NCBI GenBank assembly: GCA_903831455.1 | Contig: CAIKXV010000296.1 | Span: 3,363 to 67,362, forward strand | Origin: an uncultured Pseudomonadota bacterium | Lineage (GTDB): Bacteria; Pseudomonadota; Gammaproteobacteria; Burkholderiales; CAIKXV01 | Length of the DNA stretch: 64,000 nt | Direction of reading: 5' to 3' | Part shown: piece by piece, positions 2-26,314 of the stretch | Layout of the letters: every line of letters starts with the position of its first letter | Numbering within the stretch: the first letter of the stretch is position 1 | Notes under the pieces: generated by a model | Told to the model about the DNA's origin: nothing | Seen by the model: only the letters and a program-made list of their open reading frames with translations | Databases searched by the model: none | Program-made: the position numbers and the translations under genes

Positions 2-3233
<3,232 letters not shown>

Positions 3234-3293
3234 GGCTCGACGGGCAAGGGCGGCCCCGTGGCCCGAGCCCGGGGCCCGGGACTCGCGCAGTCG

Positions 3294-5963: not shown

Positions 5964-6092
5964 GTGGGTGTGCGTTCAGCTGGGGCTGGCGTCCGTGAAT
6001 GGGGTCAGCCGTAAAAAGGGCCGCCGATCATACGGGCAATCCGGCGACAGCGGAAACCGGCCTGCCGATCGTCCGGCCCGGCCGCATCATTG

Positions 6093-7220: not shown

Positions 7221-7300
7221 CGGGGATCTCCGGGGACGGCGTCCGCGCGGCGCCGCGGCCCCGGGATGCGGGCCTGGCGGACCCGCGGGAAAGGGTCAGG

Positions 7301-8566
7301 TCAGGGGTTTCGGACCCGGTCGTTCACGTACACCGGGCGCGTGGTGTCCATGATGATCGCGTAGCTCACCCGGTCGAACGTTCGAAACACCATCAGCATG
7401 CCGTAACGTTCCTCGGGTCCCTCGCCGGGCTTCGCGGAAGCCTGGCGCGGCCTCACGTCCGGTCCCGATCCACCGTACGGGCGGTCGGATCCGGTCGGTC
7501 CTACCCGCCCCCACAGCGCCTGTCCGCGGGGGTTGGCCATGTCGAACTCTTCCCGCGGATGGCGCTGGATGTCCCACGCCGCGTCGGAACCGGTGGGTCC
7601 GACCCGTCCCCAGAGCGTCTGCGGACGGCTGTTGGTTCGGTCGGCCAGCGGGTTTCGGAACAGGGCGAGCACATGGCCGACCTCGAGCCCGTCGCGCGCC
7701 CCCCGATTGAGGGTGACCACGTCGTACTGGGCAACCTCGACCACGTTTGCCCGTCCGTAGACGCCGAGCACCCGTCCGCCGATCGACTTGCCCGGTGGGC
7801 GGGGCAGGTATTCCGGGTAGCGCGTGGGCGGGGCGGCGATCAGGCGGTCGCCGACGACGATTTCCTGGGTCGAGCGAACGATCTCCACCGTGGACACGTC
7901 GCCCCGGCGTACGAGCCGCGCATCGCCCAGGTGCAGCGCCTCGAGGCCGAGCGCCTCGCCGGACTCCGGATCGCGCAGCACGCCGGCCGGCCGGAAGATC
8001 TGGAAGTCGCGGCCCATGGTCTCGGAGATGCCGCGGACGTAGGCGATGTTCCCCGAGCCGATGACGACGCGGTTCTCCTGCGTCTCGATGATGCTGGCGG
8101 CCGACTCGACCTGCGCGGGTTCGACGATGAACGGCTTGACCAGGAAAGGCTCGATGCGATGCGGAGGAATGGCCGGGATCGCGGTCGGTCCGATCGTCTG
8201 GACACGGGCCGACGGACTCAGCTTGACCGTGCGATCGGCCTCGACGACGCGAGCGGCCGGTTCACCCGCCGCCGCCTTGCGGTTGAGCACGATCACGTCG
8301 CCCGGGAAGATGCGATCGGGGTTGGCGACCTGGTCCTTGTTCGAGGACCAGAGTTCGTTCCAGCGCCAGGGGTCCTTGAGGAATCGCGCGGAGATGGACC
8401 AGAGCGTGTCGCCCGGAACCACGACGTAGCGATCCGGGGCGTCCGGACGCAGTTCGGGTGCAGCGGCCGCCGGTGCCGGCTGCGATTGCGCGAACGCCCG
8501 GGGCGGCGCGGCCGACAGCAGGGCGAGCGAGAGGGCGAGCGTTATAATCCAGCACGAGCGCATCAT
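7301..8566 (-). CDS. LysM peptidoglycan-binding domain protein (secreted)
   Basis: 421-aa ORF with an N-terminal signal peptide (LALSLALLSAAPPRAFA). LysM block YVVVPGDTLWSISARFLKDPWRWNELW...IFPGDVIVL. Confidence 0.8.
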   Translation of the reverse strand: MMRSCWIITLALSLALLSAAPPRAFAQSQPAPAAAAPELRPDAPDRYVVVPGDTLWSISARFLKDPWRWNELWSSNKDQVANPDRIFPGDVIVLNRKAAAGEPAARVVEADRTVKLSPSARVQTIGPTAIPAIPPHRIEPFLVKPFIVEPAQVESAASIIETQENRVVIGSGNIAYVRGISETMGRDFQIFRPAGVLRDPESGEALGLEALHLGDARLVRRGDVSTVEIVRSTQEIVVGDRLIAAPPTRYPEYLPRPPGKSIGGRVLGVYGRANVVEVAQYDVVTLNRGARDGLEVGHVLALFRNPLADRTNSRPQTLWGRVGPTGSDAAWDIQRHPREEFDMANPRGQALWGRVGPTGSDRPYGGSGPDVRPRQASAKPGEGPEERYGMLMVFRTFDRVSYAIIMDTTRPVYVNDRVRNP

Positions 8567-8717
8567 GGATTCTCCGACACCGGCAACCCGCGAGTCGTGT
8601 TCGCGGTGGGCTTGGTCCGGGCAGCGCGGACGATCGCCGCACTGCGGAGGTCAGCGACCCCGAAGTTGAACTTTCGCATTAGAGTCTGCGGGTAACGTAC
8701 CAGATTAGCAAGGCATT

Positions 8718-9221
8718 ATGGCTCAGCTACCGATCCTCCACTACCCCGATCCCCGGCTCGAGACGGTGGCCCAGCCGATCCTCTCCGTCGACGACGAGGT
8801 CAGGCGGCTGGCAGCTGACATGGCCGAGACCATGTACGAGGCGCCCGGGATCGGGCTGGCGGCCACGCAGGTCGACGTGCACCGGCAGCTGATCGTGATC
8901 GACGTGTCGGAGTCCCGCGACCAGCTGCTCACGTTCATCAACCCGAAGATCGTGGCGGCCTCCGAGGAGATCGCCAGCTACGAGGAAGGTTGCCTGTCGG
9001 TGCCGGGCATCTTCGACGAGGTCGAGCGGCCGGCGCGGGTGACGGTCGAGGCCCTGGGCCTCGACGGGAAGCCGTTCACGCTGGAGGCCGATGGCCTGCT
9101 GGCGGTCTGCATCCAGCACGAGATGGATCATCTCCGCGGGGTCGTGTTCGTGGAGCACCTGTCCCGACTGAAGCGGACCCGCATACTCGCGAAGTTGCGC
9201 AAGCAGCAGCGCGCGATGTGA
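8718..9221 (+). CDS. def: peptide deformylase
   Basis: 167-aa ORF with the three PDF motifs: [22 protein letters not shown]. Confidence 0.97.
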
Positions 9222-11540: not shown

Positions 11541-12108
11541 CCGCCGCAGCGGCGCGCAGGCGCCGCTGCTGCTCGTGCTCGCCTTCGCCCTCGCGATGCT
11601 GCTGCTGCCGCAGCCTGCGCGGGCGGATACCCTGGTCGCGCGCGGCGCGTCGCTCGCGCCTGGCGAGGAGGCGTGGCTGCTGTCGGCGGATTTCGATGTC
11701 GCGCTGCCGGCGGCCGTCGAGGACGCGCTGTCGAAGGGCGTGAGCCTGTTCTTCGTGCTCGAACTCGAAGTGACCCGGTCGCGCTGGTACTGGTTCGACC
11801 AGCGGGCGGGCAGCGCGACGCAGACCTACCGGCTCGCCTACAACACGCTGACCCGCCAGTACCGGCTGTCGACCGGGCCGCTGTTCCAGACCTTCACCAG
11901 CCTGGAGGAGGCCCTGGCCATGATGGGACGGGTCCGTCGTCGCCCGATGCTGCCCGCCAACGCGCTCGCGCGCGGCTCGAGCTACCAGGCCGCGGTACGC
12001 ATGCGGCTGGACATCTCGCAACTGCCGCGTCCGTTCCAGGCCAGTCCGTTCGCCGCGCGCGAGTGGGCCGTCGGTTCGGACTGGTACCGCTTCACCGTCA
12101 CGCCATGA
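11506..12108 (+). CDS. DUF4390-family periplasmic protein
   Basis: 200-aa ORF with a signal peptide. The block FFVLELEVTRSRWYWFDQ...YRLAYNTLTRQYRL matches the conserved gene found between rsmB and ntrY in Betaproteobacteria. Confidence 0.75.
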   Translation: MASITRSCRSDDRRSGAQAPLLLVLAFALAMLLLPQPARADTLVARGASLAPGEEAWLLSADFDVALPAAVEDALSKGVSLFFVLELEVTRSRWYWFDQRAGSATQTYRLAYNTLTRQYRLSTGPLFQTFTSLEEALAMMGRVRRRPMLPANALARGSSYQAAVRMRLDISQLPRPFQASPFAAREWAVGSDWYRFTVTP

Positions 12109-14342
12109 TGTCCCCGACGTCCGGCATCGTGGGCCGGACCCTGTCCGGTCGGCGCCGACTGGTGGTGGCGGCGGTGCTGCTGATCGGGCTGACCGCGGTG
12201 CTGCTGTTCATGCTGTCCACCGCCACCGCGAACGGCCAACGCTTCGCCAACCACCACCGGCTGCTGCTGTTCCTGAACATCGGGCTGGTCGTCGTGTTCG
12301 GGACGGTGATCGGCCTGCAGCTCTGGGCCCTGCGCCGACGCATCCGGTCGGGGGTGTTCGGCTCCCGCCTGTCGTTCCGCCTCGCGGTGTTCTTCTCCCT
12401 GGTCGCGCTGCTGCCCGGCGCGCTGGTGTACGTGGTGAGCGTGCAGTTCACCTCGCGCAGCATCGAATCCTGGTTCGATGTGCGCATCGACAAGGCGCTC
12501 GAGGGGGGGCTGGCGCTGGGCCGGTCGGCGCTCGAGGGCTCGCTGCGCGAACTGGTTTCACGAGCCGAGGTGATGGCCTCCAGCCTCGCCGACCGTGGCG
12601 ACGCCCAGCAGCGCGTGGCGCTCGAGACGCTGAGGGAGCAGAACCGGTTCGACGAAGTCGAGCTCTACAGCAGTCGCGGCACCCTCATCGGATCGGCAGG
12701 ACAGGAGAGCGGCATCTCGCCCGAACTGCCGGTGAGCGCGGTGATGCGGCAGATCCGCCTGCAGCAGCCGTTCTCCTCGATCGAGGCCTTGCCGGACGGT
12801 CGACTGTTCCTGCGGGCGGTGGTTGCGGTGAACACGCTGTCGCTCGCCGACGACATCCGCGCGCTGCAGGTGCTGCAGCAGGTGCCTCCCGCGGTGGCAG
12901 CGGCGGCCGATACGGTCCAGGTCGGCTACCGCGACTACCAGGAGCTGCTGCTGTCGCGTACCGGCCTGCGGCAGCTCTACGGACTGACCCTCACCCTGAC
13001 CCTGCTGATCGGGCTGCTGGTCGCCGTCGCGCTCGCGTTCTTCCTGTCCGAGCAGCTTGCTTCGCCGCTCGGGATTCTGGCCGAGGGCACGGCGGCGGTC
13101 GCGCGGGGCGACTTCCGGCCCCGCGAAACGGTCACCAGCGGTGACGAACTCGGCCTGCTGACCGGATCCTTCAACACCATGATCCGCCAGCTCGACGATG
13201 CGCGCGCGGCGAACGAGCGCGGGCGCGCGCAGATCGAAGCGGCGAGGGCCTACCTCGAGAGCGTGCTGGGCAACCTGTCCTCGGGCGTGATGTCCTTCGA
13301 CGGCAACCTGCGGCTGCGCGCGGCCAATCGCAGCGCCACCGATATCCTCGGCATCGAGATGGGAAGCCTGCTGGGGTCGTCGCTGTCGCGGCACGCCGAA
13401 GGCGACTCGCCGGTGGCGCAACTCGGCGCCGAGCTTGCCGCTCGCTTCGGGCAGACAGCCGCCGGCGGCGGCACCCAGACCTGGGAGTCCCAGTTCGAGT
13501 ACCTGCGTGGCGGCGGCTCGCGCACGCTGCTGCTGCGCGGTGCGCTGCTCCAGCCCGAGCCCGGTGGGGATGCCGGCTGCGTGGTGGTGTTCGACGACAT
13601 CACGAACCTGATGCGCGCCCAGCGCGATGCAGCCTGGGCCGAGGTCGCGCGAAGACTCGCGCACGAGATCAAGAACCCGCTGACCCCGATCCAGCTCGCC
13701 GCCGAGCGCATCCACCACAAGCTGGCCGAGCGGTTGTCCGCACCCGACGCGCAGATGCTCGAGCGATCGACCCGCACCATCGTCAACCAGGTCGCGGCGA
13801 TGAAGAGCATGGTGGATGCCTTCGCCGAATACGCGCGCAACCAGCCCGAGCCGGTCACCGGCGAGCTGGATCTCGACGCGCTGGTGCGCGAGGTGCTCGG
13901 CCTGTACGAGGCCACGCAGGGGCCGGTCTCGTTCGAGACCCGACTCGCCGGAGGACTGCCGCGGATCGCGGGCAGCCAGACCCAGCTTCGGCAGGTCCTG
14001 CACAACCTGCTCCAGAACGCGCAGGACTCGCTCGCGGGCGTCGAACATGCGCGCGTCACGGTGTGTACCGAGGCGGTACCCGCCGCAGCAGGCCAGCGCG
14101 CCTGGGTCCGGCTGACGGTGACGGACAACGGCGCGGGCTTTCCGCCCGCGATGCTTGCCCGGGTGTTCGAGCCCTACGTCACGACCAAGGCCAAGGGCAC
14201 CGGCCTTGGGCTGGCCATCGTCAAGAAGATCATCGACGAGCACCACGGCCACATCGAGGTGGTGAACGTCGAGCCGGCCGGCGCGAGGGTGGATATCCGC
14301 CTGCCGGTGGCGGTGCGCGCCGATGCGCAGGCTGCGGCCTGA
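12105..14342 (+). CDS. ntrY: sensor histidine kinase NtrY-like (TM, HAMP, PAS, HisKA, HATPase)
   Basis: ATG at 12105 forms an ATGA overlap with the DUF4390 stop. TM segments, H-box RRLAHEIKNPLTPIQL, N/G boxes DNGAGF and GTGLGLAIVKKI. Confidence 0.85.
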   Translation: MMSPTSGIVGRTLSGRRRLVVAAVLLIGLTAVLLFMLSTATANGQRFANHHRLLLFLNIGLVVVFGTVIGLQLWALRRRIRSGVFGSRLSFRLAVFFSLVALLPGALVYVVSVQFTSRSIESWFDVRIDKALEGGLALGRSALEGSLRELVSRAEVMASSLADRGDAQQRVALETLREQNRFDEVELYSSRGTLIGSAGQESGISPELPVSAVMRQIRLQQPFSSIEALPDGRLFLRAVVAVNTLSLADDIRALQVLQQVPPAVAAAADTVQVGYRDYQELLLSRTGLRQLYGLTLTLTLLIGLLVAVALAFFLSEQLASPLGILAEGTAAVARGDFRPRETVTSGDELGLLTGSFNTMIRQLDDARAANERGRAQIEAARAYLESVLGNLSSGVMSFDGNLRLRAANRSATDILGIEMGSLLGSSLSRHAEGDSPVAQLGAELAARFGQTAAGGGTQTWESQFEYLRGGGSRTLLLRGALLQPEPGGDAGCVVVFDDITNLMRAQRDAAWAEVARRLAHEIKNPLTPIQLAAERIHHKLAERLSAPDAQMLERSTRTIVNQVAAMKSMVDAFAEYARNQPEPVTGELDLDALVREVLGLYEATQGPVSFETRLAGGLPRIAGSQTQLRQVLHNLLQNAQDSLAGVEHARVTVCTEAVPAAAGQRAWVRLTVTDNGAGFPPAMLARVFEPYVTTKAKGTGLGLAIVKKIIDEHHGHIEVVNVEPAGARVDIRLPVAVRADAQAAA

Positions 14343-14423
14343 CGTGGGTGCCCTCGCCGAGTCGCCGGGGTTGCGGCATGATCGCCGCTGGTGGTGCGGG
14401 ACCGCACGGACACATGGCTGCGC

Positions 14424-15755
14424 ATGAGCGATATTCTGGTCGTCGATGACGAGGTTGGCATCCGTGAACTGCTCTCCGAGATCCTGAGCGACGAGGGCTA
14501 TACGGTTCGCCTCGCGGAGAATGGTGACCAGGCTCGGCGCGAGCGCGCCCGGGCCCGGCCGGACCTCGTGCTGCTCGACATCTGGATGCCCGACACCGAC
14601 GGCATCACGCTGCTCAAGGAATGGGCGCGTTGCGGCCAGCTCACGATGCCGGTGGTGATGATGTCCGGCCACGCGACCATCGACACCGCGGTCGAGTCCA
14701 CGAAGCTGGGCGCGTCGGATTTCCTCGAGAAGCCCATCGCGCTGCAGAAGCTTCTGTCCACCGTCGGGCGCGTGCTGCGCCGGGCGGGGGCGGCACCCTT
14801 GCCCGAACTGTCGCTCGACAGCCTGGGACGATCGGCGGTCGTCGCCCAGCTCAAGCAGCGCCTCGCGCAGTTGCGCGCGGCGCGCGGCCCGGTGCTGATG
14901 GTGTCGGAGCCGGGGTGCCGGGTCGAGCTCTGTGCGCAGTACCTTCACACCGCACACACCCCGTGGAAGGTGCTGGAGGATGCCCGCGCGCTCGCCAGCG
15001 CACCGCTCGAACTGGCCGAGGAGGTGGCCGAGGGCGTGCTGTTCATCCCCGCCCTCACCCAGCTCACGCGCGCCGAACAGCGGGGGCTGGCGCTGCTCAT
15101 GTCTCGCGGCGACCGGCACCGGGCGCGGGTCGTCGTCGCCAGCGCGCGCGGCCTGGGCGAACTGGTCGCGGCGGGCGATGCCGAGCCGCGGCTGCTCGAG
15201 GCGGCGCCGGCGACCCTGCAGGTGCCGGCGCTGCGCGAGCATCGGGAGGATGTGCCCGAACTCGCCAACCTGTTCCTCACGCGCATCATCGAAGCGCGCG
15301 AATGCCCGCCGCGCAGTTTCGATACCGCCGCGCTCAACGCGCTGCGCAACCACGACTGGCCCGGCAACCTGATGCAGCTCGAGCAGGTCGTCCGATCGCT
15401 CGCGATCACCGCGCTGGGCACCGACATCACGGCCGAGGACGTGCTGCGGCTGGTCGCCTCGGTCGAGGCCGCGGTCGCGCCGGCGTCGAGCGCCGAGCCG
15501 GTCGCGCCGGCGCCGCTCGACGAACCTGTCGCCGCGCCGCCGGCCGCACCGCCGGGTCCGGGCGCCGGGCTCCGATTCGATGCGCCGCTGCGCGAGGCCC
15601 GCGACGCGTTCGAGAAGGCCTACCTCGAGCACCACATCGCGCTCGAGGGCGGCAACATGAGCCGCGTGGCCGACAAGGTCGGCCTGGAACGGACCCACCT
15701 GTATCGCAAGATCAAGCAGCTGGGCATCCGGACGCGCCGCGGCGAGGACGGCTGA
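14424..15755 (+). CDS. ntrX: response regulator NtrX-like (REC, degenerate AAA+, Fis-type HTH)
   Basis: [16 protein letters not shown] receiver with [15 protein letters not shown]-terminal [29 protein letters not shown]. An alternative ATG lies at 14391. Confidence 0.85.
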
Positions 15756-17866: not shown

Positions 17867-18060
17867 CGCGTGCCCTGCCGCCCGGCGTCATCGGGCAAGT
17901 GCACGCGTTGCGGTAGACTTGCGCCCTTCCGGGGCGGTTCGAGCCGCCCTGCCCCCGGGGTCCGGCCCGGCCGCCCGAGCGCGTGCCGGCTCGCCCGCCG
18001 CGACCCCGCCTTTTTCCACGCGGCCCCGCGGGGCCGCCCGCAGAGATCCCGGAGGACTCC

Positions 18061-19074
18061 ATGGCGATTCGCGTAGGCATCAACGGGTACGGCCGCATCG
18101 GACGCAACATCCTGCGTGCGCTCTATGAATCCGGTCGCACCGGCGAGATCCAGGTCGCCGCGATCAACGACCTCGGCGATGCCCAGACCAACGCGCACCT
18201 GACCCGCCACGACACCGCGCACGGCCGTTTCCCGGGCAAGGTGGAAGTCGATGGCGACAGCATGGTGGTCAACGGCGACCGGATCCGCGTGTTCGCGGTG
18301 CGCAACCCCGCGGAAATCGCCTGGGGTTCGGTCGGGGTCGACGTGGTGCTCGAGTGCACCGGCCTGTTCACCACGAAGGAGAAGGCGGGTGCGCACCTCA
18401 AGGGCGGCGCGAAGAAGGTCGTGATCTCGGCCCCCGGGGGCAAGGACGTCGATGCCACCGTGGTCTACGGCGTGAACCACGGGGTCCTCAAGGCCAGCGA
18501 CACCGTGATCTCCAACGCGTCCTGCACGACCAACTGCCTCGCGCCGCTGGTCAAGGTGCTGCACGAGAAGGTGGGCGTGGTGAACGGCCTGATGACCACC
18601 GTGCACTCGTACACCAACGACCAGGTGCTCACCGACGTCTACCACGAGGACCTGCGGCGCGCGCGGTCGGCCACGCAATCGATGATTCCCACCAAGACCG
18701 GTGCCGCGGCCGCGGTCGGACTGGTGCTGCCCGAGCTCAACGGGCGCCTGGACGGTTTCGCGATCCGCGTGCCCACGATCAACGTGTCGGTGGTCGACCT
18801 GTCCTTCGTCTCCGCGCGGGCGACCAGCGTCGAGGAAGTGAATGCCATCATGAAGGAGGCGGCCAGCCGCCCCGAGTGGCAGGGCGTGCTCGGCTACAAC
18901 GACGCGCCGCTGGTGTCGATCGACTTCAACCACGACTCGCGCTCGAGCGTGTTCGACTCCACCCTCACCAAGGTGTCGGGCAACCTGGTCAAGGTGTCGT
19001 CGTGGTACGACAACGAGTGGGGTTTCTCCAACCGCATGCTGGACACCACGCTGGCCCTGATGGCGGCGAAGTGA
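18061..19074 (+). CDS. gap: glyceraldehyde-3-phosphate dehydrogenase (type I)
   Basis: ATG at 18061 preceded by [16 protein letters not shown], active site [23 protein letters not shown]. Confidence 0.95.
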
Positions 19075-19105
19075 CCGGATCGGGTACTCGGGCGGGGCAG
19101 GCACG

Positions 19106-20293
19106 ATGAACATCCGGCGCATGCAGGACCTGGATCTTTCCGGCAAGCGGGTGTTCATCCGCGCCGATCTCAATGTCCCCCAGGACGACTCGGGCGCCAT
19201 CACCGATGACACCCGCATCCGTGCGTCGGTGCCCGGCATCGAACTGGCGCTTGCCGCCGGCGCCCGGGTGATGGTCACCTCGCACCTCGGCCGACCGAAG
19301 GAGGGTGAACTGCGCCCCGAGGATTCGCTCGCGCCGGTGGCACGGCGGCTCTCGGAACTGCTCGGCCGACCGGTGCCGCTGGTGCGCGACTGGGTCGATG
19401 CCGCCGAAGTCGCACCCTCCCCGGGTTCGGTGGTGCTGCTGGAGAACTGCCGCTGCAACCGGGGCGAGAAGAAGGACGACGAGGCGCTGTCGCGCCGGAT
19501 GGCCGCGTTGTGCGACGTGTACGTGAACGATGCCTTCGGCACCGCGCATCGCGCCGAGGCCACCACGCACGGCATCGCCCGCTTCGCGCCCGTGGCCTGC
19601 GCCGGCCCGCTGATGGCCGCGGAGGTCGAGGCGCTGACCCGCGCGCTCGCGCAGCCGCGGCGTCCACTGGTGGCGATCGTCGCCGGCTCGAAGGTCTCGA
19701 CCAAGCTCACCATCCTCAAGTCGCTCGCCTCGCGCGTCGATCGGCTGATCGTGGGTGGCGGCATCGCCAACACGTTCATGCTGGCACGCGGGCTGCCGAT
19801 CGGCCGCTCGCTGGCCGAACCGGACCTGCTCGAGGAGGCGCGCTCGGTGATGGCCGAACTCGCCGCGAAGGGAGGCGAGGTGCCGATCCCGGTCGACGTC
19901 GTGGTCGCGCCGGCCTTCGCCGCCGATGCGCCGGCCACCGTCAAGGCCGCGAACGCGGTGGCGGCCGGGGACATGATCCTGGACATCGGTCCGAAGACCG
20001 CGGCGACACTGGCCGACCTGCTGCGCGGCGCCGGCACGATCGTCTGGAACGGTCCGGTCGGCGTGTTCGAGTTCGATGCGTTCTCCGGCGGCACGCGTGC
20101 GATCGCCGAGGCCGTGGCCGAGTCCTCCGCGTTCTCGATCGCCGGCGGCGGCGACACGATCGCGGCCATCAACCGCTTCGGCGTTGCCGATCGCGTCGAC
20201 TACATCTCCACCGCCGGCGGTGCCTTCCTGGAATTCCTGGAGGGCAAGGAACTGCCGGCACTCGCGGCGCTGCAGGCGCGCGCGGCGGCCTGA
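19106..20293 (+). CDS. pgk: phosphoglycerate kinase
   Basis: 395-aa [30 protein letters not shown] motifs. Confidence 0.95.
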
Positions 20294-20316
20294 GCGGCGC
20301 GCGCACGGGGGAATCG

Positions 20317-21753
20317 ATGAATCGCCGAACGAAGATCGTCTGCACGCTGGGTCCGGCCACCAACGACCCGAAGGTGCTCGCGCGCATGATCGACGCCGGC
20401 ATGGACGTCGTGCGCATCAACTTCTCCCACGGCACGGCCGAGGAACACGCGCGGCGGGTCGAGACCATCCGCTCGCTCGCCCGCGCGGCGGGCCGCACCA
20501 TCGGCGTGCTGATGGACCTGCAGGGCCCGAAGATCCGGATCGGCAAGTTCGAAGCCGGCAAGACCGTGCTCAAGCCCGGGGCACGGTTCGTCCTCGATGC
20601 CCGCTGCAAGCTCGGCAACGACGAGCGCGTCGGGCTCGACTACCCGAACCTGCCCCGCGACGTGCGGGCGGGCGACACGCTGCTGCTGAACGACGGCCTG
20701 ATCGTGCTCACCGTGGCCGAGGTCAAGGGCCAGCAGATCGTCACGGTGGTCGACCAGGGTGGCGTGCTCTCGAACAACAAGGGCATCAACCGCAAGGGCG
20801 GAGGACTCACCGCCCCGGCACTGACCGAAAAGGACATGGAGGACATCCGGATCGCCGCCGAACTCAAGGCGGACTATCTCGGGGTTTCCTTCCCGCGGTC
20901 GGGCCAGGACATCGAGTGGGCGCGCAGCCTCCTGCACAAGGCCGGCGGTCGCGCGCTCATCTGCTCGAAGATCGAACGCGCGGAGGCCATCGCCTCGCTC
21001 GAGGAGATCGTCGAGGCCTCCGACGTCATCATGGTCGCGCGCGGCGACCTCGCGGTCGAGGTCGGCGACGCGGTGATCCCGGCGCTGCAGAAGCGCATGA
21101 TCCGGCTCGCCCGTGCGCGCAACAAGGCGGTGATCACCGCCACGCAGATGATGGAGTCGATGATCTCCTCGCCGATTCCCACGCGCGCCGAGGTGTCCGA
21201 CGTGGCCAACGCGGTCCTCGACGGCACCGACGCCGTGATGACCTCGGCGGAGACGGCGGCCGGCCAGTATCCGGTCGAGACCGTCGAGGCGATGGCCCGG
21301 GTCTGCATCGAGGCCGAGAAGGCGGACCTCGCCTCGTATGGCGAGCGGCGCGCTGCCGAGGAGTCGAGCCGCGACGTCGAGGGGGCGATCGGTCGGGCGG
21401 TGATGTCCACGGCCAACTACCTGCCGATCCGCGCGATCGCGGCGCTGACCCAGAGCGGGCGCACCGCGCTGCTGATGTCGCGCAACGATTCGCCGGTGCC
21501 CATCTACGCGCTCACGCCGCTGGTGGAGACGCGCCGGCGCGTGACCGTATTCCGCGGCGTGCATCCGGTGAACTTCACCGTGAAGTCGAAGGATCCGGAG
21601 GAGACGCTCAACGCCGCCGAGGACGAGCTGCTGCGGCGGGGCGCGGTGCAGAACGGCGACCTCATCGTGATGACGATCGGCGAGCCCTTCGGCAAGGCGG
21701 GCGGAACCAACACCATGAAGATCGTCCGCGTGGGCGAACATCGAAAGCCCTGA
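20317..21753 (+). CDS. pyk: pyruvate kinase
   Basis: Internal ATG at 20317. TKIVCTLGPAT, MDVVRINFSHG, MVARGDLAVE motifs. Confidence 0.93.
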   Translation: MNRRTKIVCTLGPATNDPKVLARMIDAGMDVVRINFSHGTAEEHARRVETIRSLARAAGRTIGVLMDLQGPKIRIGKFEAGKTVLKPGARFVLDARCKLGNDERVGLDYPNLPRDVRAGDTLLLNDGLIVLTVAEVKGQQIVTVVDQGGVLSNNKGINRKGGGLTAPALTEKDMEDIRIAAELKADYLGVSFPRSGQDIEWARSLLHKAGGRALICSKIERAEAIASLEEIVEASDVIMVARGDLAVEVGDAVIPALQKRMIRLARARNKAVITATQMMESMISSPIPTRAEVSDVANAVLDGTDAVMTSAETAAGQYPVETVEAMARVCIEAEKADLASYGERRAAEESSRDVEGAIGRAVMSTANYLPIRAIAALTQSGRTALLMSRNDSPVPIYALTPLVETRRRVTVFRGVHPVNFTVKSKDPEETLNAAEDELLRRGAVQNGDLIVMTIGEPFGKAGGTNTMKIVRVGEHRKP

Positions 21754-21827
21754 GCACGAGCAGACCCTTCGCGCCTGTCTCTCGATCGGCGCGGCACTGG
21801 ACCGAAGGACCAACCGGGAGACCCGAG

Positions 21828-22856
21828 ATGGACAGCAAACTGATGGCCGCGACCGCCGCGGCGATGGTGGCCAGCGGCAAGGGCCTGCTGGCGGCCGACG
21901 AGAGCAGCGCGACCGTGGCCAAGCGCTTTGCCGGCGTGAACGTCGAGAACACGGAGGCCAACCGGCGCACGTACCGCGACCTCCTCTTCACGACGCCGGG
22001 CATCGGCTCGCATATCAGCGGCGTGATCCTGTTCGACGAGACGATCCGCCAGTCCTCGCTGGCGGGCAAGCCCTTCCCGGCGCTGCTCGAATCCCAGGGC
22101 ATCATTCCCGGCATCAAGGTCGACGGCGGCGCCAAGGATTACGCCGGCCATCCGGGCGAACAGGTCACCGAGGGACTGGACGGCCTGCGCGGCCGGCTCG
22201 CCGAGTACTTCAAGCTCGGTGCGCGCTTCGCCAAGTGGCGCGCGGTGATCAACGTCGGCCGCGACATCCCGTCCTCGGGTTGCATCGAGGCCAACGCCCA
22301 CGCGCTCGCGCGCTACTCGGCCCTGTGCCAGGAGGCGAGCATCGTCCCGATCATCGAGCCCGAGGTGCTGATCGACGGCGACCACACGATCGAGCGCTGC
22401 CACGAGGTGAGCGAGGCGGTGTTGCGCGCGACCTTCCAGGCCTGCTATGGCCAGCGGGTCTCCGCCGAGCACCTGATCCTGAAGGCCAGCATGGTGATCT
22501 CGGGCAAGTCCTGCGCGACGCAGGCCCCCGAGGAGCAGGTGGCCGACATGACCGTCGAATGCCTGAAGCGCGCCGTGCCGGCGGCGCTACCCGGCGTGGT
22601 CTTCCTGTCCGGCGGCCAGAGCGACGAGAAGGCGGCGGCGCACCTGTCGCTGATGAACTCGCGGCACGCCGGTCGACTGCCCTGGCCGCTGACCTTCTCC
22701 TACTCGCGCGCCCTGCATCAGGCCGCACTCAAGGCCTGGAGCGGTCGCGAGGGCAACGTCCAGGCGGCGCAGGGCGTGTTCGCGCATCGCGCGCGCATGT
22801 GCAGCCTCGCCTCGCAGGGGCGCTACACCGCGGTCGAGGAGCGCACGGCGGGCTGA
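21828..22856 (+). CDS. fba: fructose-bisphosphate aldolase, class I (Schiff-base type)
   Basis: Internal ATG at 21828. GKGLLAADESSATVAKRF, ISGVILFDETIRQ, ILKASMVISG (Schiff-base Lys context), VVFLSGGQS. Confidence 0.9.
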   Translation: MDSKLMAATAAAMVASGKGLLAADESSATVAKRFAGVNVENTEANRRTYRDLLFTTPGIGSHISGVILFDETIRQSSLAGKPFPALLESQGIIPGIKVDGGAKDYAGHPGEQVTEGLDGLRGRLAEYFKLGARFAKWRAVINVGRDIPSSGCIEANAHALARYSALCQEASIVPIIEPEVLIDGDHTIERCHEVSEAVLRATFQACYGQRVSAEHLILKASMVISGKSCATQAPEEQVADMTVECLKRAVPAALPGVVFLSGGQSDEKAAAHLSLMNSRHAGRLPWPLTFSYSRALHQAALKAWSGREGNVQAAQGVFAHRARMCSLASQGRYTAVEERTAG

Positions 22857-22871
22857 GTCCAGCCCCGGGTC

Positions 22872-22894
22872 GACGCCCGCCCGGTGCGGGCGTC
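22872..22894 (+). terminator. candidate intrinsic terminator hairpin after fba
   Basis: Perfect 9-bp stem GACGCCCGC/GCGGGCGTC with loop CCGGT, 16 nt after the fba stop. No U-tract follows. Confidence 0.35.
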
Positions 22895-23052
22895 GTCCTG
22901 GCCCGGAGGATCAGGGAACACCCCGCCGCGAGGGTGTGGTGATCGGTGAACCGGGTACTCGTCGCCGACAGGGCCGGCCGCGGCATGGCGCTCGTCGGCG
23001 GCCCGGCGAGGGCGAGTCGCGGGCCTGCGGGCGGCCCGGACGACCCACGAGG

Positions 23053-23087: not shown

Positions 23088-23564
23088 TCAGTGTCCCGGG
23101 TTGGGGTTGTGTTCGGCCCAGCCCGTGGTCTTGGCACCTTCGGTGGCGATCAGCACGAAGGCCATGATGCAGTCCTCGGTGCCGGGATTGCGCCAGTTGT
23201 GGTTCGTCCCGCGCTGGATCACCACGTCACCGGGCTTGAGATGGACCGAGCCCTCGTCCATCTCCATGATCATCTCGCCGGCCAGGCAGATCGCATAGTC
23301 GACCGAGTCGGTGGCGTGCCAGCGAGGCACGTTGCCCGGCGCGTAGCGGCCGAAGCGGAATACCGATCCACCCGCCAGGCTGGTGCCCAGGTCCCAGGTG
23401 TTCGGATCGTCCTGCGTGCTCTCGGCCGGCAGCTTGCGGGTCGCCCACATCGGGATGTTGTCGAAGCCGGGACGCAGGTTGATCGGATCGATCAGGCTGT
23501 CCCACTGGATGCAGCTCTTGCCTTCCTTGTTGAAGCCGGTGACGACGCGACGGAATTGCTTCAT
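23088..23564 (-). CDS. cupin domain protein
   Basis: 158-aa ORF. Cupin-type motifs WHATDSVDYAICLAGEMIMEMDEG and LKPGDVVIQRGTNHNWRN. Confidence 0.75.
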   Translation of the reverse strand: MKQFRRVVTGFNKEGKSCIQWDSLIDPINLRPGFDNIPMWATRKLPAESTQDDPNTWDLGTSLAGGSVFRFGRYAPGNVPRWHATDSVDYAICLAGEMIMEMDEGSVHLKPGDVVIQRGTNHNWRNPGTEDCIMAFVLIATEGAKTTGWAEHNPNPGH

Positions 23565-23681: not shown

Positions 23682-24209
23682 TCAGGCGGTGAGTTGCTTG
23701 ACCAGCACGTCGAGGTGGCCGAGCGTGACGGCGCGCATCTCATCGGCACCGAGGTTGCTGATGGGATGCGGCAGCTCGATGTAGGGATGGCCCGGCATGC
23801 CGCGCGACCTGAACTGGAACACGCAGGCATTGCGGAACGCCTGGGTGATGATCACGGTGGCGGGGATGCCGCGACGTTCGAACTCCACGGTGTCGTGCAC
23901 ACTGCACAACGTGCACGACCCTCATCCACCGACGGCGGCCACCGCCAGATGCGCCTCCTGGGCGAGCTCGTCGATCAGCTGATCGGTGGCGGGCTTCGAG
24001 TAGTGTTCCTTGCTGCGGATGATCACCCGGGCCACGCCGTGGCGCTCCTTCAGCGCCGCGGCGATCGTCTCGAGGATCAGCGTGCCCTGCTCCTTGGTGT
24101 TGTCCACCATGGCCACGACCCTGCCGGCAAGGTCCATGGGTCGGGGCGCAAGGGGTATGGCCGGGCGGTTGCCTCCGGCAGACGGATCGATGAAGGGCAA
24201 GGGTTGCAT
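23682..24209 (-). CDS. UGSC-motif (seleno)protein candidate, 175 codons, with in-frame TGA (Sec) at 23922..23924
   Basis: ATG at 24209 preceded by AAGGAGG. Minus-strand reading is continuous across the TGA: ...AVAAVGG-U-GSCTLCSVHDTVEF... The track splits it into 23922..24500 and 23682..23909. The downstream piece has only a TTG start and no RBS. A stable hairpin follows the TGA directly. Confidence 0.7.
23892..23919 (-). promoter_or_regulatory. SECIS-like RNA hairpin immediately 3' of the in-frame UGA
   Basis: Minus strand UGA-GG-GUCGUGCAC-(GUUGUGCAGU)-GUGCACGAC. Perfect 9-bp stem with a 10-nt G/U-containing loop. The stem can extend by G-C pairs across a bulged A. Confidence 0.6.
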
Positions 24210-24237
24210 CGGCGGTCCTCCTTGGAAGTCGGATGGA

Positions 24238-25263
24238 TCAGGCGCGGGGTACGCGATAGCGTCCATGGACCGCACGGCTGCCGCCGCTCCAGCCATGGCA
24301 GATCGCGGTGCAGGGGCCCCAGCCGCCGGCCACCACCAGCAGCAGGTCGTCGGGATGCTTGATCGCCGGCACGAAGCAGCCATCGTCGTCGGGGTCGACG
24401 GCGATCGGCAGCGCCAGCGCCCGCTCGCGTCGCCAGTTGCCGCCGCGCCGAAGGTCCCCGACCGTGCGTCCGGCGCGTTCGACCAGCCACCGGTGGACAT
24501 CGGTGCGGCTCATGCCCGCCTCGGCGCAGAGCGTCGCGTGCTGCGGACCCATCGCGACCACCATGTCCGACCGCGCGTGCATGTTCCATGACCCCAGCGC
24601 CGCCATCCCGTCGGCGATGCCGGTGAGCAGGCGTTCGGGATCCTGGCTCACGTCGTCGAAGTGCAGTCGCGGAGATTCGACCATCGCGCATGCGATCGTG
24701 TCCTCGTCGACGCGATGGCCCTGCGCGACGGCGAGCGTCTCCCAGGGGCTGCGCTCGACGTTCTCGGTGATGCAGGCCGTATAGCGCAGGGGCGAGCCGA
24801 AGATCGTGGCCGAGGCGACACCGGCCATGCCGCCGCCGAGGTTGAGCAGGATCAGCCGGATCGCGCGCCCGATCGACGCGTTGGCCCGGAAGCCGGGGCC
24901 GAAGCAGCCATTGCCGCCGTTCAGTCCGACGCGCGCGGCGTGCGGCCCGTTGACGATCATCAGCGGCGCGACGCCATGCATGGTGCCCTGGACGCCGTTG
25001 AGATTGAACGGTTCGAGCAGCATGAGGTCGAGCGCGGCGATGACGACCGGCAGGTGGTCGGGCCGGCAGCCGGCCATCAGCGCGTGCAGCGCGACGTCAC
25101 GCACGGTGGCGACGTTCATGGCCGGGGGTACCGCGCCGATCACGTCCTCGGGCAGGCGCCCCGCGGCCGCCAGCATCGGGGCGAGCCGGGCTTCGGTGGG
25201 CGTGACGACCGGCAATCCGTCCGACCACGGTTTTTCCAGAAAGAACTCGAACTCGTCGATCAT
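24238..25263 (-). CDS. uncharacterised protein, tandem paralog A (341 aa)
   Basis: ATG at 25263 preceded by AAGGAG. High GC3 coding signal. Conserved blocks WSDGLPVVTPT, AVPPAMNVATVRDVALHA, NLNGVQGTMHGVAPLMIVNGP, GPGFRANA.IGRAIRL, VVAGGWGP. I recognise no family. Confidence 0.8.
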   Translation of the reverse strand: MIDEFEFFLEKPWSDGLPVVTPTEARLAPMLAAAGRLPEDVIGAVPPAMNVATVRDVALHALMAGCRPDHLPVVIAALDLMLLEPFNLNGVQGTMHGVAPLMIVNGPHAARVGLNGGNGCFGPGFRANASIGRAIRLILLNLGGGMAGVASATIFGSPLRYTACITENVERSPWETLAVAQGHRVDEDTIACAMVESPRLHFDDVSQDPERLLTGIADGMAALGSWNMHARSDMVVAMGPQHATLCAEAGMSRTDVHRWLVERAGRTVGDLRRGGNWRRERALALPIAVDPDDDGCFVPAIKHPDDLLLVVAGGWGPCTAICHGWSGGSRAVHGRYRVPRA

Positions 25264-25282
25264 GCCCGGCCCCGCTCCTTTC

Positions 25283-26314
25283 TCAATCGACCCGGTAGCG
25301 GCCATGCACCGCACGGCTGCCACCGCCCCAGCCGTGCGCCACGGCGCTGACCGGCCCCCAGCCACCAGCGACGATCAGGTGGAGGTCCTGCGGGTCCTTG
25401 ATGACCGGCACGAACGCGTCGTTGCATGCCGGATCGACGCCGATGCGTCGCGCCCGCTCGTCGCGCCAGTTGCCGCCGCGGCGCAGGTCGCCCGCGGTCC
25501 GGCCCGCCTGCCGCACCAGCCATTCGTGCACGCGAGCGCGGTCCCAGCCGGCGCGTGCGCAGATCGTCGCCTGCTCGGGCCCCAGCACCACCACCATGTC
25601 CGAGCGCACGTGCATGTTCCAGCTGCTCATCGCAGCCATCGAGTCGGCGATGCCGGTGAGCAGGCGCTCGGGACCCTGGCTGACGTCGTCGTAGCAGAGA
25701 CGGGGCGCCTCGACCATCGCGCAGGTGATCACGTCCTCGTCGACGCCGTAGCCGCGCGAGACCGCGAGCGTCTCCCACGGGCTGCGCTCGATGTTCTCGG
25801 TCCAGCAGGCGGTGTAGCGCAGCGGCGAGGACAGCACCGTGGCCGAGGCGAGGCCGGGGATACCGCCGCCCAGGTTGAGCAGCAGCAGCCGGATCGCGCG
25901 GCCGATGGTGGCGTTGGCCCGGAAGCCCGGTCCCAGGCAGCCGTTGCCGCCATGCAGTCCGATGCGCGTCGCGTAGGGGCCGTTGACGATCATCAGCGGT
26001 GCGACGCCGTGCATGGTGCCCTGCACGCCGTTGAGGTTGAACGGTTCGCGCAGCATCAGTGCGAGGCCGCCCAGCACCACCGGCAGATACTCGGGCAGGC
26101 AGCCGGCCATCACCGCGTGCAGCGCCACGTCGCGCACGGTGGCGACGTTCATGGCCGGGGGAACCGCGCCGATCACCTCCGTCGGGTCGCGGCTCGTCCC
26201 GTGCAGCATCCAGTCGAGCCGCTCCTGCGTCGGCGTCACGACCGGCAGGCCGTCGCTCCACTCCTTCGCGAAGAAGAACTCGAACGGATCGAGTCCGTCC
26301 CCGGCGTCGGTCAT
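25283..26314 (-). CDS. uncharacterised protein, tandem paralog B (343 aa)
   Basis: ATG at 26314 forms an ATGA overlap with the stop of the upstream Bug gene. Colinear with paralog A over its full length. It occupies the lower third of spurious track ORF 25283..28033. Confidence 0.8.
   Translation of the reverse strand: MTDAGDGLDPFEFFFAKEWSDGLPVVTPTQERLDWMLHGTSRDPTEVIGAVPPAMNVATVRDVALHAVMAGCLPEYLPVVLGGLALMLREPFNLNGVQGTMHGVAPLMIVNGPYATRIGLHGGNGCLGPGFRANATIGRAIRLLLLNLGGGIPGLASATVLSSPLRYTACWTENIERSPWETLAVSRGYGVDEDVITCAMVEAPRLCYDDVSQGPERLLTGIADSMAAMSSWNMHVRSDMVVVLGPEQATICARAGWDRARVHEWLVRQAGRTAGDLRRGGNWRDERARRIGVDPACNDAFVPVIKDPQDLHLIVAGGWGPVSAVAHGWGGGSRAVHGRYRVD

What the first reader, a model, noticed from the sequence alone, without database searches (positions are those of the whole stretch)
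23892..23924. Perfect 9-bp hairpin starts 3 nt after the in-frame UGA (bacterial SECIS-like element)
The minus-strand RNA reads UGA GG GUCGUGCAC GUUGUGCAGU GUGCACGAC ACC. GUCGUGCAC and GUGCACGAC are exact reverse complements (9 bp). The 10-nt apical loop contains G and U residues. The two G after the UGA can pair with the trailing CC across a bulged A. Bacterial SelB-dependent recoding needs exactly such a stem-loop immediately downstream of the UGA. A structure this stable inside a coding region, at precisely this position, is unlikely to be chance. It is independent evidence for Sec insertion rather than termination.
Basis: partly seen in the sequence, partly recalled or inferred. Interest (0 to 1): 0.7.

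Follow-up and report, generated by a model that had tools for sequence, protein, structure and literature searches.

The report
SECIS hairpin in UGSC selenoprotein gene

Summary
The 9-bp hairpin exists exactly as described: window 23919-23911 pairs with 23900-23892 on the minus strand. RNAfold extends it to 12 bp at -19.2 kcal/mol. The gene (24209..23682, minus) belongs to the UGSC family (seleno)protein (NF041046, PF24696), known since 2007-2008. Its TGA (23924-23922) aligns with the first Cys of CGSC in Cys homologues.

I examined 160 homologous TGA-containing gene copies in three protein subfamilies. What is conserved is a nested 8-bp hairpin with a GUG triloop at nt 15-33 from the U of UGA (window 23910-23892).
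- It pairs in 121 of 121 distinct sequences, with two compensatory pairs.
- Its codons (+4 to +10) are frozen at synonymous sites, including the rare TTG and AGT.
- It meets every criterion of the published bacterial SECIS model.
- It starts 11 nt after the UGA and places G23/U24 as in E. coli fdhF.

The outer hairpin fails the spacing and loop criteria. It survives at 8-9 of 10 pairs in four of 11 Cys homologues, so it is mostly a by-product of the SCT...VHD peptide.

Verdict: a SECIS, but a different stem. This is a new member of a known kind and of low novelty. SelB binding and the sel genes could not be tested.

The parts
23682..24209 (-). UGSC family (seleno)protein gene: 95 codons, TGA (Sec), 79 codons, stop
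   Evidence: NCBIfam NF041046 scores 130.3 bits against a cutoff of 125. Pfam PF24696 gives E = 2e-47. Public gene calls split it into a 95-aa and a 75-aa ORF.
24216..24223 (-). Shine-Dalgarno-like AAGGAGGA upstream of the ATG at 24209
   Evidence: Read directly from the sequence.
23922..23924 (-). In-frame TGA read as selenocysteine (residue 96, motif U-G-S-C)
   Evidence: TGA is present at this position in 81/81 copies of subfamily A, 77/77 of subfamily B and 3/3 of subfamily C. It aligns with the first Cys of CGSC in full-length Cys homologues.
23892..23910 (-). Conserved SECIS minihelix, nt 15-33 counted from the U of UGA. 5' arm GUUGUGCA is 23910-23903, triloop G23 U24 G25 is 23902-23900, and 3' arm UGCACGAC is 23899-23892.
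   Evidence: It pairs in 100% of 968 cells over 121 distinct sequences. Two pairs show compensatory change, and 0 of 500 shuffles reach this. RNAalifold predicts exactly this helix on its own, at -11.62 kcal/mol. Its energy in the window is -10.3 kcal/mol in context and -8.8 isolated.
23892..23912 (-). Block of codons +4 to +10 (ACG TTG TGC AGT GTG CAC GAC) frozen at synonymous sites
   Evidence: Synonymous-codon entropy is 0-0.1 bits here, against roughly 0.3-1.75 bits at the other conserved residues of the gene. TTG makes up 3.2% of Leu codons and AGT 3.1% of Ser codons in this window.
23911..23919 (-). It competes with 23910-23903 for the same 3' arm.
   Evidence: It is the minimum-energy fold in the window, at -19.2 kcal/mol. 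It is not conserved. When 6 or more nt after the UGA are held single-stranded, the minimum-energy fold switches to the inner hairpin.
24241..25365 (-). Upstream partner gene of about 341-375 aa with no Pfam or NCBIfam match, conserved next to UGSC genes
   Evidence: It is 38-39% identical (E = 2e-56 and 4e-69) to the gene adjacent to UGSC in Paracoccus ferrooxidans (a Sec form) and Roseovarius (a Cys form). It is fused to a UGSC domain in a 545-aa Variovorax protein. It has no family hit.
23088..23564 (-). Downstream cupin-domain gene, same strand
   Evidence: Pfam Cupin_2, E = 1e-9. The same gene order is seen in metagenome contigs that carry the identical protein.

Best explanation
The gene encodes a UGSC-family selenoprotein, and its UGA at 23924-23922 is recoded to selenocysteine. 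The recoding signal is most likely a 19-nt minihelix that starts 11 nt after the UGA (nt 15-33, window 23910-23892). It has 8 bp: G15-C33, U16-A32, U17.G31, G18-C30, U19-A29, G20-C28, C21-G27 and A22-U26. These close a G23-U24-G25 triloop.

By analogy with E. coli fdhF, the SelB.GTP.Sec-tRNA(Sec) complex would bind the loop G23/U24 and the helix backbone. It would then deliver Sec-tRNA to the A site when the ribosome reaches the UGA.

That hairpin uses the same 3' arm with a different 5' arm (nt 6-14). A ribosome with UGA in its A site covers that 5' arm, and the inner hairpin is then the favoured fold.

What is shown: the structure, its conservation and covariation, its specificity to TGA forms, and its fit to the bSECIS model. 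What is inferred: SelB binding, actual Sec incorporation, and the ribosome-driven exchange of arms.
For: 1. Family membership: NF041046 scores above its cutoff and PF24696 matches. The family is listed as a selenoprotein family in PMC2398784, PMC1976440 and PMC13188914.

2. The TGA is kept in all 81 + 77 + 3 homologous gene copies examined (160 besides the window's own), and the downstream frame is conserved. The best 120 database proteins listed in each of two searches are all 95-115-aa N-terminal or 72-75-aa C-terminal fragments. No Cys form more than 47% identical appeared among cluster representatives of 15 billion proteins.

3. Codons +4 to +10 are frozen at synonymous sites in 81/81 and 76/76 sequences. 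Flanking invariant residues use 2-5 codons each. The frozen block ends at nt 33, the 3' end of the inner helix, and its first frozen wobble position (nt 15) is the helix's 5' end.

4. The inner helix is 100% paired in 121 distinct sequences. G18-C30 becomes A-U in L052. C21-G27 becomes G-C in Paracoccus and Acidovorax. U17.G31 is replaced by C-G in 60 sequences. None of 500 shuffles reaches these values. RNAalifold predicts the same helix independently.

5. All bSECIS model criteria from PMC13188914 are met: a 3-nt loop, an 8-bp stem, a loop that starts G-U, 19 nt between UGA and loop, and -8.8 kcal/mol.

6. The geometry matches the E. coli fdhF minimal SECIS. The fdhF sequence was verified, and its features of nt 15-31, 11 nt from the UGA, and G23/U24 come from PMC8659212. 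The window has G23, U24 and the 3' arm U26-G-C-A-C30 at the same positions.

7. Eleven Cys homologues have free synonymous codons and 2-7 of the 8 inner pairs, never all 8.

8. The G.U pairs in the helix work only in sense-strand RNA.

9. TGA is the ordinary stop codon of this genome, ending 34 of 39 strong ORFs. Recoding must therefore be local.
Against: No selA, selB, selD or tRNA-Sec gene lies in the 64-kb window or in the flanks of 83 related loci. The organism's ability to decode Sec is therefore not shown here.

In this particular sequence the outer hairpin is about 9 kcal/mol more stable than the inner one. In free mRNA the proposed SECIS would be mostly masked.

Covariation rests on few independent events: two pairs, in three distinct sequences. 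Most of the helix never varies, and an invariant pair says nothing about pairing as such.

The top 6 bp of the outer hairpin (nt 10-15 with 24-29) also stay paired in 119 of 121 sequences, so that alternative is not fully excluded.

There is no bulged U17, which is essential in E. coli. No Rfam family matches.
Confidence: 0.8

Rival explanations
1. The first reader's outer 9-12-bp hairpin (nt 4-36, loop nt 16-23) is itself the SECIS that SelB recognises.
For: It is the minimum-energy structure of the window sequence, at -19.2 kcal/mol with z = -2.3. Its upper 6 bp stay paired in 119 of 121 sequences through one-sided G-C to G.U changes. Its loop contains G and U.
Against: The pairs at wobble positions are broken in most homologues: 54 of 121 and 33 of 121 are paired, and the overall score equals that of shuffles. 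The stem is in the minimum-energy fold in only 14 of 81 and 0 of 76 sequences. The C21/G27 swap in subfamily C breaks it while keeping the inner helix.

It fails the bSECIS spacing criterion, with 12 nt against 16-37, and the loop-G criterion. It cannot explain why loop positions G18 and C21 and the weak partner U24 (AGT, never AGC) are frozen. Most of its 5' arm would lie inside the ribosome when UGA is in the A site (established footprint knowledge; inference). A similar stem persists in Cys forms.
Confidence: 0.08
2. Both hairpins are functional, as mutually exclusive conformers. The outer one masks the SECIS 3' arm in free mRNA. The approaching ribosome melts the outer 5' arm and lets the inner SECIS form just in time.
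For: The two 5' arms are a near direct repeat (GUCGUGCA and GUUGUGCA) that compete for one 3' arm. Blocking 6 or more nt after the UGA switches the minimum-energy fold from outer to inner.
Against: The full outer stem is present in only a minority of homologues, those with a TCG Ser codon (12 of 81), and its wobble positions drift freely. Selection therefore does not maintain the switch. Its complementarity follows from the S-C-T and V-H-D codons and is also seen in Cys forms.
Confidence: 0.08
3. There is no recoding. The TGA is a true stop, giving a split or decaying gene or two separately translated polypeptides. The hairpin and the frozen codons would then reflect amino-acid constraints, a restart codon (TTG/GTG), or a DNA palindrome (GTGCAC) bound by a protein.
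For: Gene callers annotate two ORFs. The second starts at the conserved TTG (subfamily A) or GTG (subfamily B). No sel genes were seen in the window.
Against: The TGA and both halves are conserved in frame in 160 homologous copies from different lineages. The TGA aligns with the redox Cys of CGSC in full-length homologues. Subfamily C has no start codon at +4 or +5.

Amino-acid constraint cannot freeze synonymous sites, and cannot do so in favour of codons used at 3%. The G.U pairs and the compensatory swaps fit an RNA helix on the sense strand, not a DNA palindrome. The family is curated as a selenoprotein family.
Confidence: 0.03

Closest known systems
Bacterial SECIS consensus model (bSECISearch, Zhang and Gladyshev 2005, as summarised in PMC13188914)
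   Same: The element is a stem-loop inside the coding region, just 3' of the Sec UGA. It has a 3-nt apical loop, an 8-bp upper stem, a loop that starts G then U, 19 nt between UGA and loop, and a free energy of -8.8 kcal/mol or lower. All model limits are met.
   Different: The loop sits at the lower limit of the allowed size (3 nt). There is no bulge or internal loop in the helix. The sequence is almost invariant across subfamilies about 40% identical in protein, whereas bSECIS elements are usually described as unrelated in sequence.
Escherichia coli fdhF SECIS (minimal element nt 15-31; U17, G23, U24)
   Same: The minihelix starts at nt 15, 11 nt after the UGA. G23 and U24 are in the loop at the same numbered positions. 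The 3' arm U26-G27-C28-A29-C30 is identical in sequence and position.
   Different: fdhF has a GGUC tetraloop and a bulged U17 that is essential for SelB binding. Here the loop is a GUG triloop. Position 17 is paired, as U.G in subfamily A and as C-G in subfamilies B and C. The helix is 8 bp rather than 6 bp plus a bulge. The host gene and organism are unrelated.
UGSC family (seleno)protein (NCBIfam NF041046, Pfam PF24696; the 'UGSC-containing protein' of Zhang and Gladyshev 2007/2008)
   Same: Both HMMs match above their cutoffs. The U-G-S-C motif is present, with Sec at the first position of a UxxC redox motif. The length is about 175 aa. Cys (CGSC) homologues exist. Fusion or adjacency to an uncharacterised domain of about 350 aa ('Unknown_1' in PMC2398784) is seen.
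   Different: Nothing differs at the family level. This copy belongs to a Burkholderiales-type subfamily (U-GSCTLCSVHD) in which I found no Cys form at all.
Glycine/sarcosine/betaine/D-proline reductase selenoprotein B (GrdB/PrdB; TIGR01917, TIGR01918)
   Same: Weak local similarity (E = 3e-4 to 7e-3) between residues 71-156 and the stretch of GrdB-type proteins at profile positions 321-401. I did not check whether the two Sec positions align.
   Different: The scores are far below the family cutoffs (15-20 bits against 65-800). The protein is much shorter, at 175 aa against about 430, and the gene neighbourhood is different.

Membership tests
Bacterial SECIS element (bSECIS model) | Lies in the coding region directly downstream of an in-frame UGA that aligns with Cys in homologues | tested here: met
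   The helix is at nt 15-33 after the UGA at 23924-23922. The UGA aligns with the first Cys of CGSC in Cys forms.
Bacterial SECIS element (bSECIS model) | Apical loop of 3-9 nt on an upper stem of 4-16 bp | tested here: met
The inner hairpin has a 3-nt loop and an 8-bp stem. RNAfold's version of the outer stem has an 8-nt loop.
Bacterial SECIS element (bSECIS model) | G in one of the first two loop positions, usually followed by G or U | tested here: met
   The loop is G23-U24-G25, invariant in 121 of 121 distinct sequences. The outer hairpin's 8-nt loop starts U-U, so it does not meet this.
Bacterial SECIS element (bSECIS model) | 16-37 nt between the UGA and the apical loop | tested here: met
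The inner hairpin has 19 nt (nt 4-22).
Bacterial SECIS element (bSECIS model) | Free energy of -7.5 kcal/mol or lower | tested here: met
   -8.8 kcal/mol for the isolated 19-mer and -10.3 kcal/mol in context.
Bacterial SECIS element (bSECIS model) | Structure conserved among TGA-containing homologues, with compensatory change, and lost in Cys forms | tested here: met
   It is 100% paired, two pairs change on both sides, and 0 of 500 shuffles reach this. Eleven Cys forms have 2-7 of 8 pairs and free codons.
Bacterial SECIS element (bSECIS model) | Bound by SelB and required for Sec insertion | not testable with these tools
   This needs binding or reporter experiments.
Bacterial SECIS element (bSECIS model) | Genome encodes selA, selB, selC (tRNA-Sec) and selD | tested here: inconclusive
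   None was found in the 64-kb window. No tRNA-Sec was found in the flanks of 83 related loci. The rest of the genome is not available.
E. coli fdhF-type SECIS | Minihelix 11 nt from the UGA with G23 and U24 in the loop | tested here: met
   The helix starts at nt 15, and G23 and U24 are in the loop.
E. coli fdhF-type SECIS | Bulged U17 on the 5' side of the helix | tested here: not met
   Position 17 is paired, as U.G in 61 sequences and C-G in 60. It works like the fdhF element but is not a copy of that type.
UGSC family (seleno)protein | Match to NF041046 and PF24696 above the curated cutoffs | tested here: met
   130.3 bits against a cutoff of 125, and 161.9 bits against a cutoff of 25.
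UGSC family (seleno)protein | U/C-G-S-C motif at the junction of the two halves | tested here: met
   The sequence reads ...AAVGG-U-GSCTLCSVHD....
Rfam RNA families | Match to any curated covariance model | tested here: not met
   No match at gathering thresholds in the window. Only chance-level hits on the other strand appeared in a relaxed search of 23700-24100.

The most novel reading that the evidence does not exclude
The near direct repeat of the two 5' arms (GUCGUGCA at nt 6-13 and GUUGUGCA at nt 15-22) makes a ribosome-actuated strand exchange. In free mRNA the stable outer hairpin hides the SelB site, and the translating ribosome exposes it only as it reaches the UGA. Separately, the almost invariant 19-nt sequence, which shares its 3' arm and G23/U24 register with E. 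coli fdhF, may define a common high-affinity SelB site across proteobacteria. Such a site would in turn dictate the C-S-V-H-D peptide of the Sec forms.
Probability: 0.1. Interest if true: 0.45.

Novelty: new member of a known kind. Interest (0 to 1): 0.25.

Why it matters
The result confirms that this gene is a selenoprotein gene. Public gene calls cut it into a 95-aa and a 75-aa ORF, so the correct product is a single 175-aa protein with Sec at residue 96.

It also pins down which nucleotides form the recoding signal for the whole UGSC family. That gives a simple search pattern: TGA, 11 nt, then GTYGTGSA-GTG-TSCAYGAC.

It shows how a hairpin that looks convincing in one genome can be a by-product of the encoded peptide while the selected structure is a weaker one nested inside it.

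The function of UGSC proteins and of their conserved partner of about 350 aa is still unknown. The tight linkage and occasional fusion make the pair a defined target for experiments.

Tried and rejected
- **Rfam.** The whole window at gathering thresholds and a relaxed search of 23700-24100 gave no relevant family.
- **tRNA-Sec.** ARAGORN found no tRNA-Sec in the window or in 83 related loci.
- **sel genes.** Pfam and NCBIfam scans of about 40 window ORFs found none. They found housekeeping genes, Calvin-cycle-type glycolytic genes and a photosynthesis cluster.
- **Mixed fragment alignment.** An alignment of N- and C-terminal fragments (A1) was misaligned by MAFFT and was discarded.
- **Over-diverse alignment.** A 12-sequence divergent alignment (A3) was too diverse for the locus finder. 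A 5-sequence subset worked.
- **Viral contigs.** A scan for the SECIS pattern gave 0 hits.
- **PDB.** The sequence search found no solved relative.
- **Restart-codon idea.** I considered that TTG or GTG after the TGA starts a second polypeptide. I rejected it because subfamily C has no start codon there and the idea does not explain the frozen AGT GTG CAC GAC.
- **DNA palindrome idea.** I rejected it because the helix contains G.U pairs, which work only in sense-strand RNA.

Full report
**Observation.** The two 9-mers (23919-23911 and 23900-23892) are perfect reverse complements. RNAfold adds one G.U pair at the top and the GG/CC pairs across a bulged A. The result is 12 bp at -19.2 kcal/mol, with z = -2.29 and 4 of 200 shuffles folding as well. 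In a 66-nt context z is only -1.04. Perfect 9-bp hairpins with 3-12-nt loops occur at about 19 places in this 71% G+C window (28 nested hits), against 13.3 +/- 5.3 hits in Markov simulations. The stem alone is therefore weak evidence, and its position is what matters.

**The gene.** Translating 24209..23682 on the minus strand gives 95 codons, TGA, 79 codons and a stop. An AAGGAGGA ribosome-binding site precedes the ATG. With Cys in place of the stop, the protein matches NCBIfam NF041046 'UGSC family (seleno)protein' at 130.3 bits (cutoff 125). It also matches Pfam PF24696 at E = 2e-47. The motif is ...VGG-U-GSC-TLCSVHD.

The family has been listed as a selenoprotein family since 2007-2008 (PMC1976440; PMC2398784; review PMC13188914). 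Its function is unknown.

TGA is the normal stop codon here, ending 34 of 39 strong ORFs, so any recoding must be local.

**Homologues.** Protein searches returned almost only halves. The best 120 hits listed for the full-length query are 96-115-aa N-terminal pieces. The best 120 listed for the C-terminal query are 72-75-aa pieces. The gene is therefore interrupted by a stop in its close relatives. Full-length Cys forms (CGSC) exist only at 47% identity or less.

I collected DNA for three TGA-containing subfamilies:
- **Subfamily A:** the window plus 80 gene copies from 79 Burkholderiales/Betaproteobacteria genome loci, motif U-GSCTLCSVHD.
- **Subfamily B:** 77 metagenome loci, motif U-GSCVSCSVHD.
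- **Subfamily C:** Paracoccus ferrooxidans, Paracoccus versutus and Acidovorax sp. T1 replicons, motif U-GSCTSWSVHD.

Every copy has TGA at the same codon.

**Synonymous sites.** In subfamily A the codons ACG TTG TGC AGT GTG CAC GAC (+4 to +10) are identical in 81 of 81 sequences, apart from one sequence discussed below. Invariant residues on either side use up to four codons: Gly+1 uses four, Ser+2 four, Glu+13 two and Pro+20 four. This is the only run with zero entropy along the gene. TTG is 3.2% of Leu codons and AGT 3.1% of Ser codons in this window. Subfamily B shows the same freeze, GTG TCG TGC AGT GTG CAC GAC, in 76 of 76 sequences. Amino-acid constraint cannot produce this, so an RNA-level constraint covers nt 15-33, counted from the U of UGA.

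On 121 distinct sequences the outer structure is paired in 84% of cells. Pair 6-33 holds in 54 of 121, pair 9-30 in 33 of 121, and the flanking pair 4-36 in 66 of 121. The overall score is no better than shuffles.

A nested helix uses the same 3' arm with the next 8 nt as its 5' arm. Its pairs are G15-C33, U16-A32, U17.G31, G18-C30, U19-A29, G20-C28, C21-G27 and A22-U26, closing the loop G23 U24 G25. It is paired in 100% of 968 cells.
- G18-C30 becomes A-U in L052 (TTA plus CAT).
- C21-G27 becomes G-C in subfamily C (TGG plus GTC).
- U17.G31 becomes C-G in 60 sequences.
- None of 500 shuffles reaches these values.

RNAalifold predicts exactly this helix without guidance. The C21/G27 swap breaks the outer stem.

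The inner helix is part of the minimum-energy fold in 66 of 81 subfamily A sequences and 66 of 76 subfamily B sequences. The outer stem is part of it in only 14 of 81 subfamily A sequences, one of which is the window.

**Fit to the known model.** The published bSECIS constraints are a 3-9 nt loop, a 4-16 bp stem, a G in the first two loop positions, 16-37 nt from UGA to loop, and -7.5 kcal/mol or lower (PMC13188914). The inner hairpin meets them all: a 3-nt loop, 8 bp, a loop starting G-U, 19 nt, and -8.8 kcal/mol. The outer hairpin fails on spacing (12 nt) and on the loop G.

The E. coli fdhF sequence I recalled was confirmed as 100% identical in 5,413 E. coli records. Its minimal SECIS is nt 15-31, 11 nt from the UGA, with U17, G23 and U24 as determinants (PMC8659212). 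The window's helix also starts at nt 15. It has G23 and U24 in the loop and the same 3' arm, U26-GCAC-30. It lacks the bulged U17 and has a triloop rather than a tetraloop. It therefore works like the fdhF element but is not a copy of it.

**Cys forms.** Eleven Cys homologues were examined. They have varying synonymous codons and only 2-7 of the 8 inner pairs, never all 8. Only one of them has a GUG loop.
- Six are Sphingobium/haloarchaeal-type metagenome and genome copies.
- Five come from Embleya, Arthrobacter, Roseovarius and two Variovorax strains.

Four of them still form 8-9 of the 10 outer pairs (L158, L161, L162, L170). The reason is that the S-C-T and V-H/Y-D codons are near reverse complements.

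One Cys form (L163) keeps 7 of 8 inner pairs. This looks like a decaying remnant of the kind described in PMC1794560.

In Cys forms the residues at +6 to +9 vary widely. In Sec forms S-V-H-D (+7 to +10) is invariant and +6 is Cys or, in subfamily C, Trp. The RNA seems to constrain the protein rather than the reverse.

**Mechanism.** It is established that a ribosome with a codon in its A site covers roughly 9-12 nt downstream. With UGA in the A site, the outer 5' arm (nt 6-14) must therefore be single-stranded. When 6 or more nt after the UGA are blocked, the minimum-energy fold of the window sequence becomes the inner hairpin. I infer that SelB.GTP.Sec-tRNA binds this minihelix through G23/U24, as in E. 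coli. Binding, Sec incorporation and the arm exchange are inferred, not shown.

**Limits.** No sel genes and no tRNA-Sec lie in the window or in the related flanks. Covariation rests on two pairs in three distinct sequences. The upper 6 bp of the outer stem are also nearly always pairable. In this genome the outer stem is about 9 kcal/mol more stable than the inner one.

**Context.** The gene directly upstream (24241-25365, no family match) is 38-39% identical to the gene next to UGSC in Paracoccus (a Sec form) and Roseovarius (a Cys form). It is fused to a UGSC domain in Variovorax boronicumulans. This agrees with the 'UGSC/Unknown_1' fusion noted in PMC2398784. A cupin gene follows UGSC, and a TctC-type binding protein and a GST lie upstream.

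**Verdict.** The finding is real and its functional reading is right, but the helix drawn is not the selected one. This is a new member of a known kind: a UGSC selenoprotein gene with its bSECIS. Interest is low. The useful outcomes are a corrected gene model, a precise SECIS definition for the family, and a cautionary example of a peptide-driven hairpin.

Noticed in passing
window 39100-62450: A photosynthesis gene cluster is present. It includes PucC-type proteins, a UbiA-type prenyltransferase, BchF, a nitrogenase-like chlorophyllide/protochlorophyllide reductase subunit, the magnesium chelatase H subunit and a NifH-like BchL/X. It also includes reaction-centre H chain, an AcsF-like rubrerythrin-fold protein, DUF3623 (PuhE-like), CrtI-like and CrtB-like enzymes, and porphobilinogen deaminase. 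The organism is probably a phototrophic or aerobic anoxygenic phototrophic Burkholderiales bacterium.
   Followed up: partly
window 17917-22853 (+): GAPDH, phosphoglycerate kinase and a class I fructose-bisphosphate aldolase lie in a row, converging on the UGSC operon. A perfect 9-10-bp G+C-rich hairpin at 22871-22895 sits just after the aldolase stop and looks like a terminator.
   Followed up: no
window 24241-25365 (-); L164 3543-4634; L168 301-1413; L169 1444-3081: An uncharacterised protein of about 350 aa, with no Pfam or NCBIfam model, is consistently adjacent to UGSC genes of both Sec and Cys type. It is fused to a UGSC domain in Variovorax boronicumulans. trxB, trxA, LysR and TctC genes recur nearby.
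   Followed up: partly
L076 1259 and 2951; MAGs with two loci (e.g. L004/L005, L018/L020, L053/L060): Several genomes carry two UGSC selenoprotein genes. In one case the two lie about 1.7 kb apart on one contig, and both have the same frozen SECIS block.
   Followed up: no
window 23925-23930 and the same codons in L001-L080: The Gly codon just before the UGA is GGG or GGA in 74 of 81 sequences. The Gly codon one position further upstream is GGC or GGT in 76 of 81. In subfamily B the preceding Asp is GAT in 48 of 76 despite the high G+C content. This may be a context effect on UGA recoding.
   Followed up: no
public protein collections: The gene is systematically called as two ORFs, of 95-96 aa and 72-75 aa, in metagenome and MAG annotations. 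The exact 95-aa N-terminal product of this window occurs in 63 blocks of the assembly collection.
   Followed up: partly
L163 (Cys form, JGI 3300003971): This Cys-containing UGSC gene keeps 7 of the 8 inner-hairpin pairs in the subfamily C version, GUCGUGG...CCAUGAC. Its relatives keep only 4-5. It may be a fossil SECIS left by a Sec-to-Cys conversion.
   Followed up: partly
window 759-9218: gyrB, a type IA topoisomerase, dprA, a LysM protein and peptide deformylase lie together, which is typical housekeeping chromosomal context. An NtrY/NtrX-like two-component pair lies at 11541-15752.
   Followed up: no
window codons -60 to -57 of the UGSC gene (about 24095-24104): There is a mild dip in synonymous diversity (0.28-0.48 bits) at the conserved D-N-T-K motif of the N-terminal half. 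It is far weaker than the dip at the SECIS and may only reflect codon bias.
   Followed up: no
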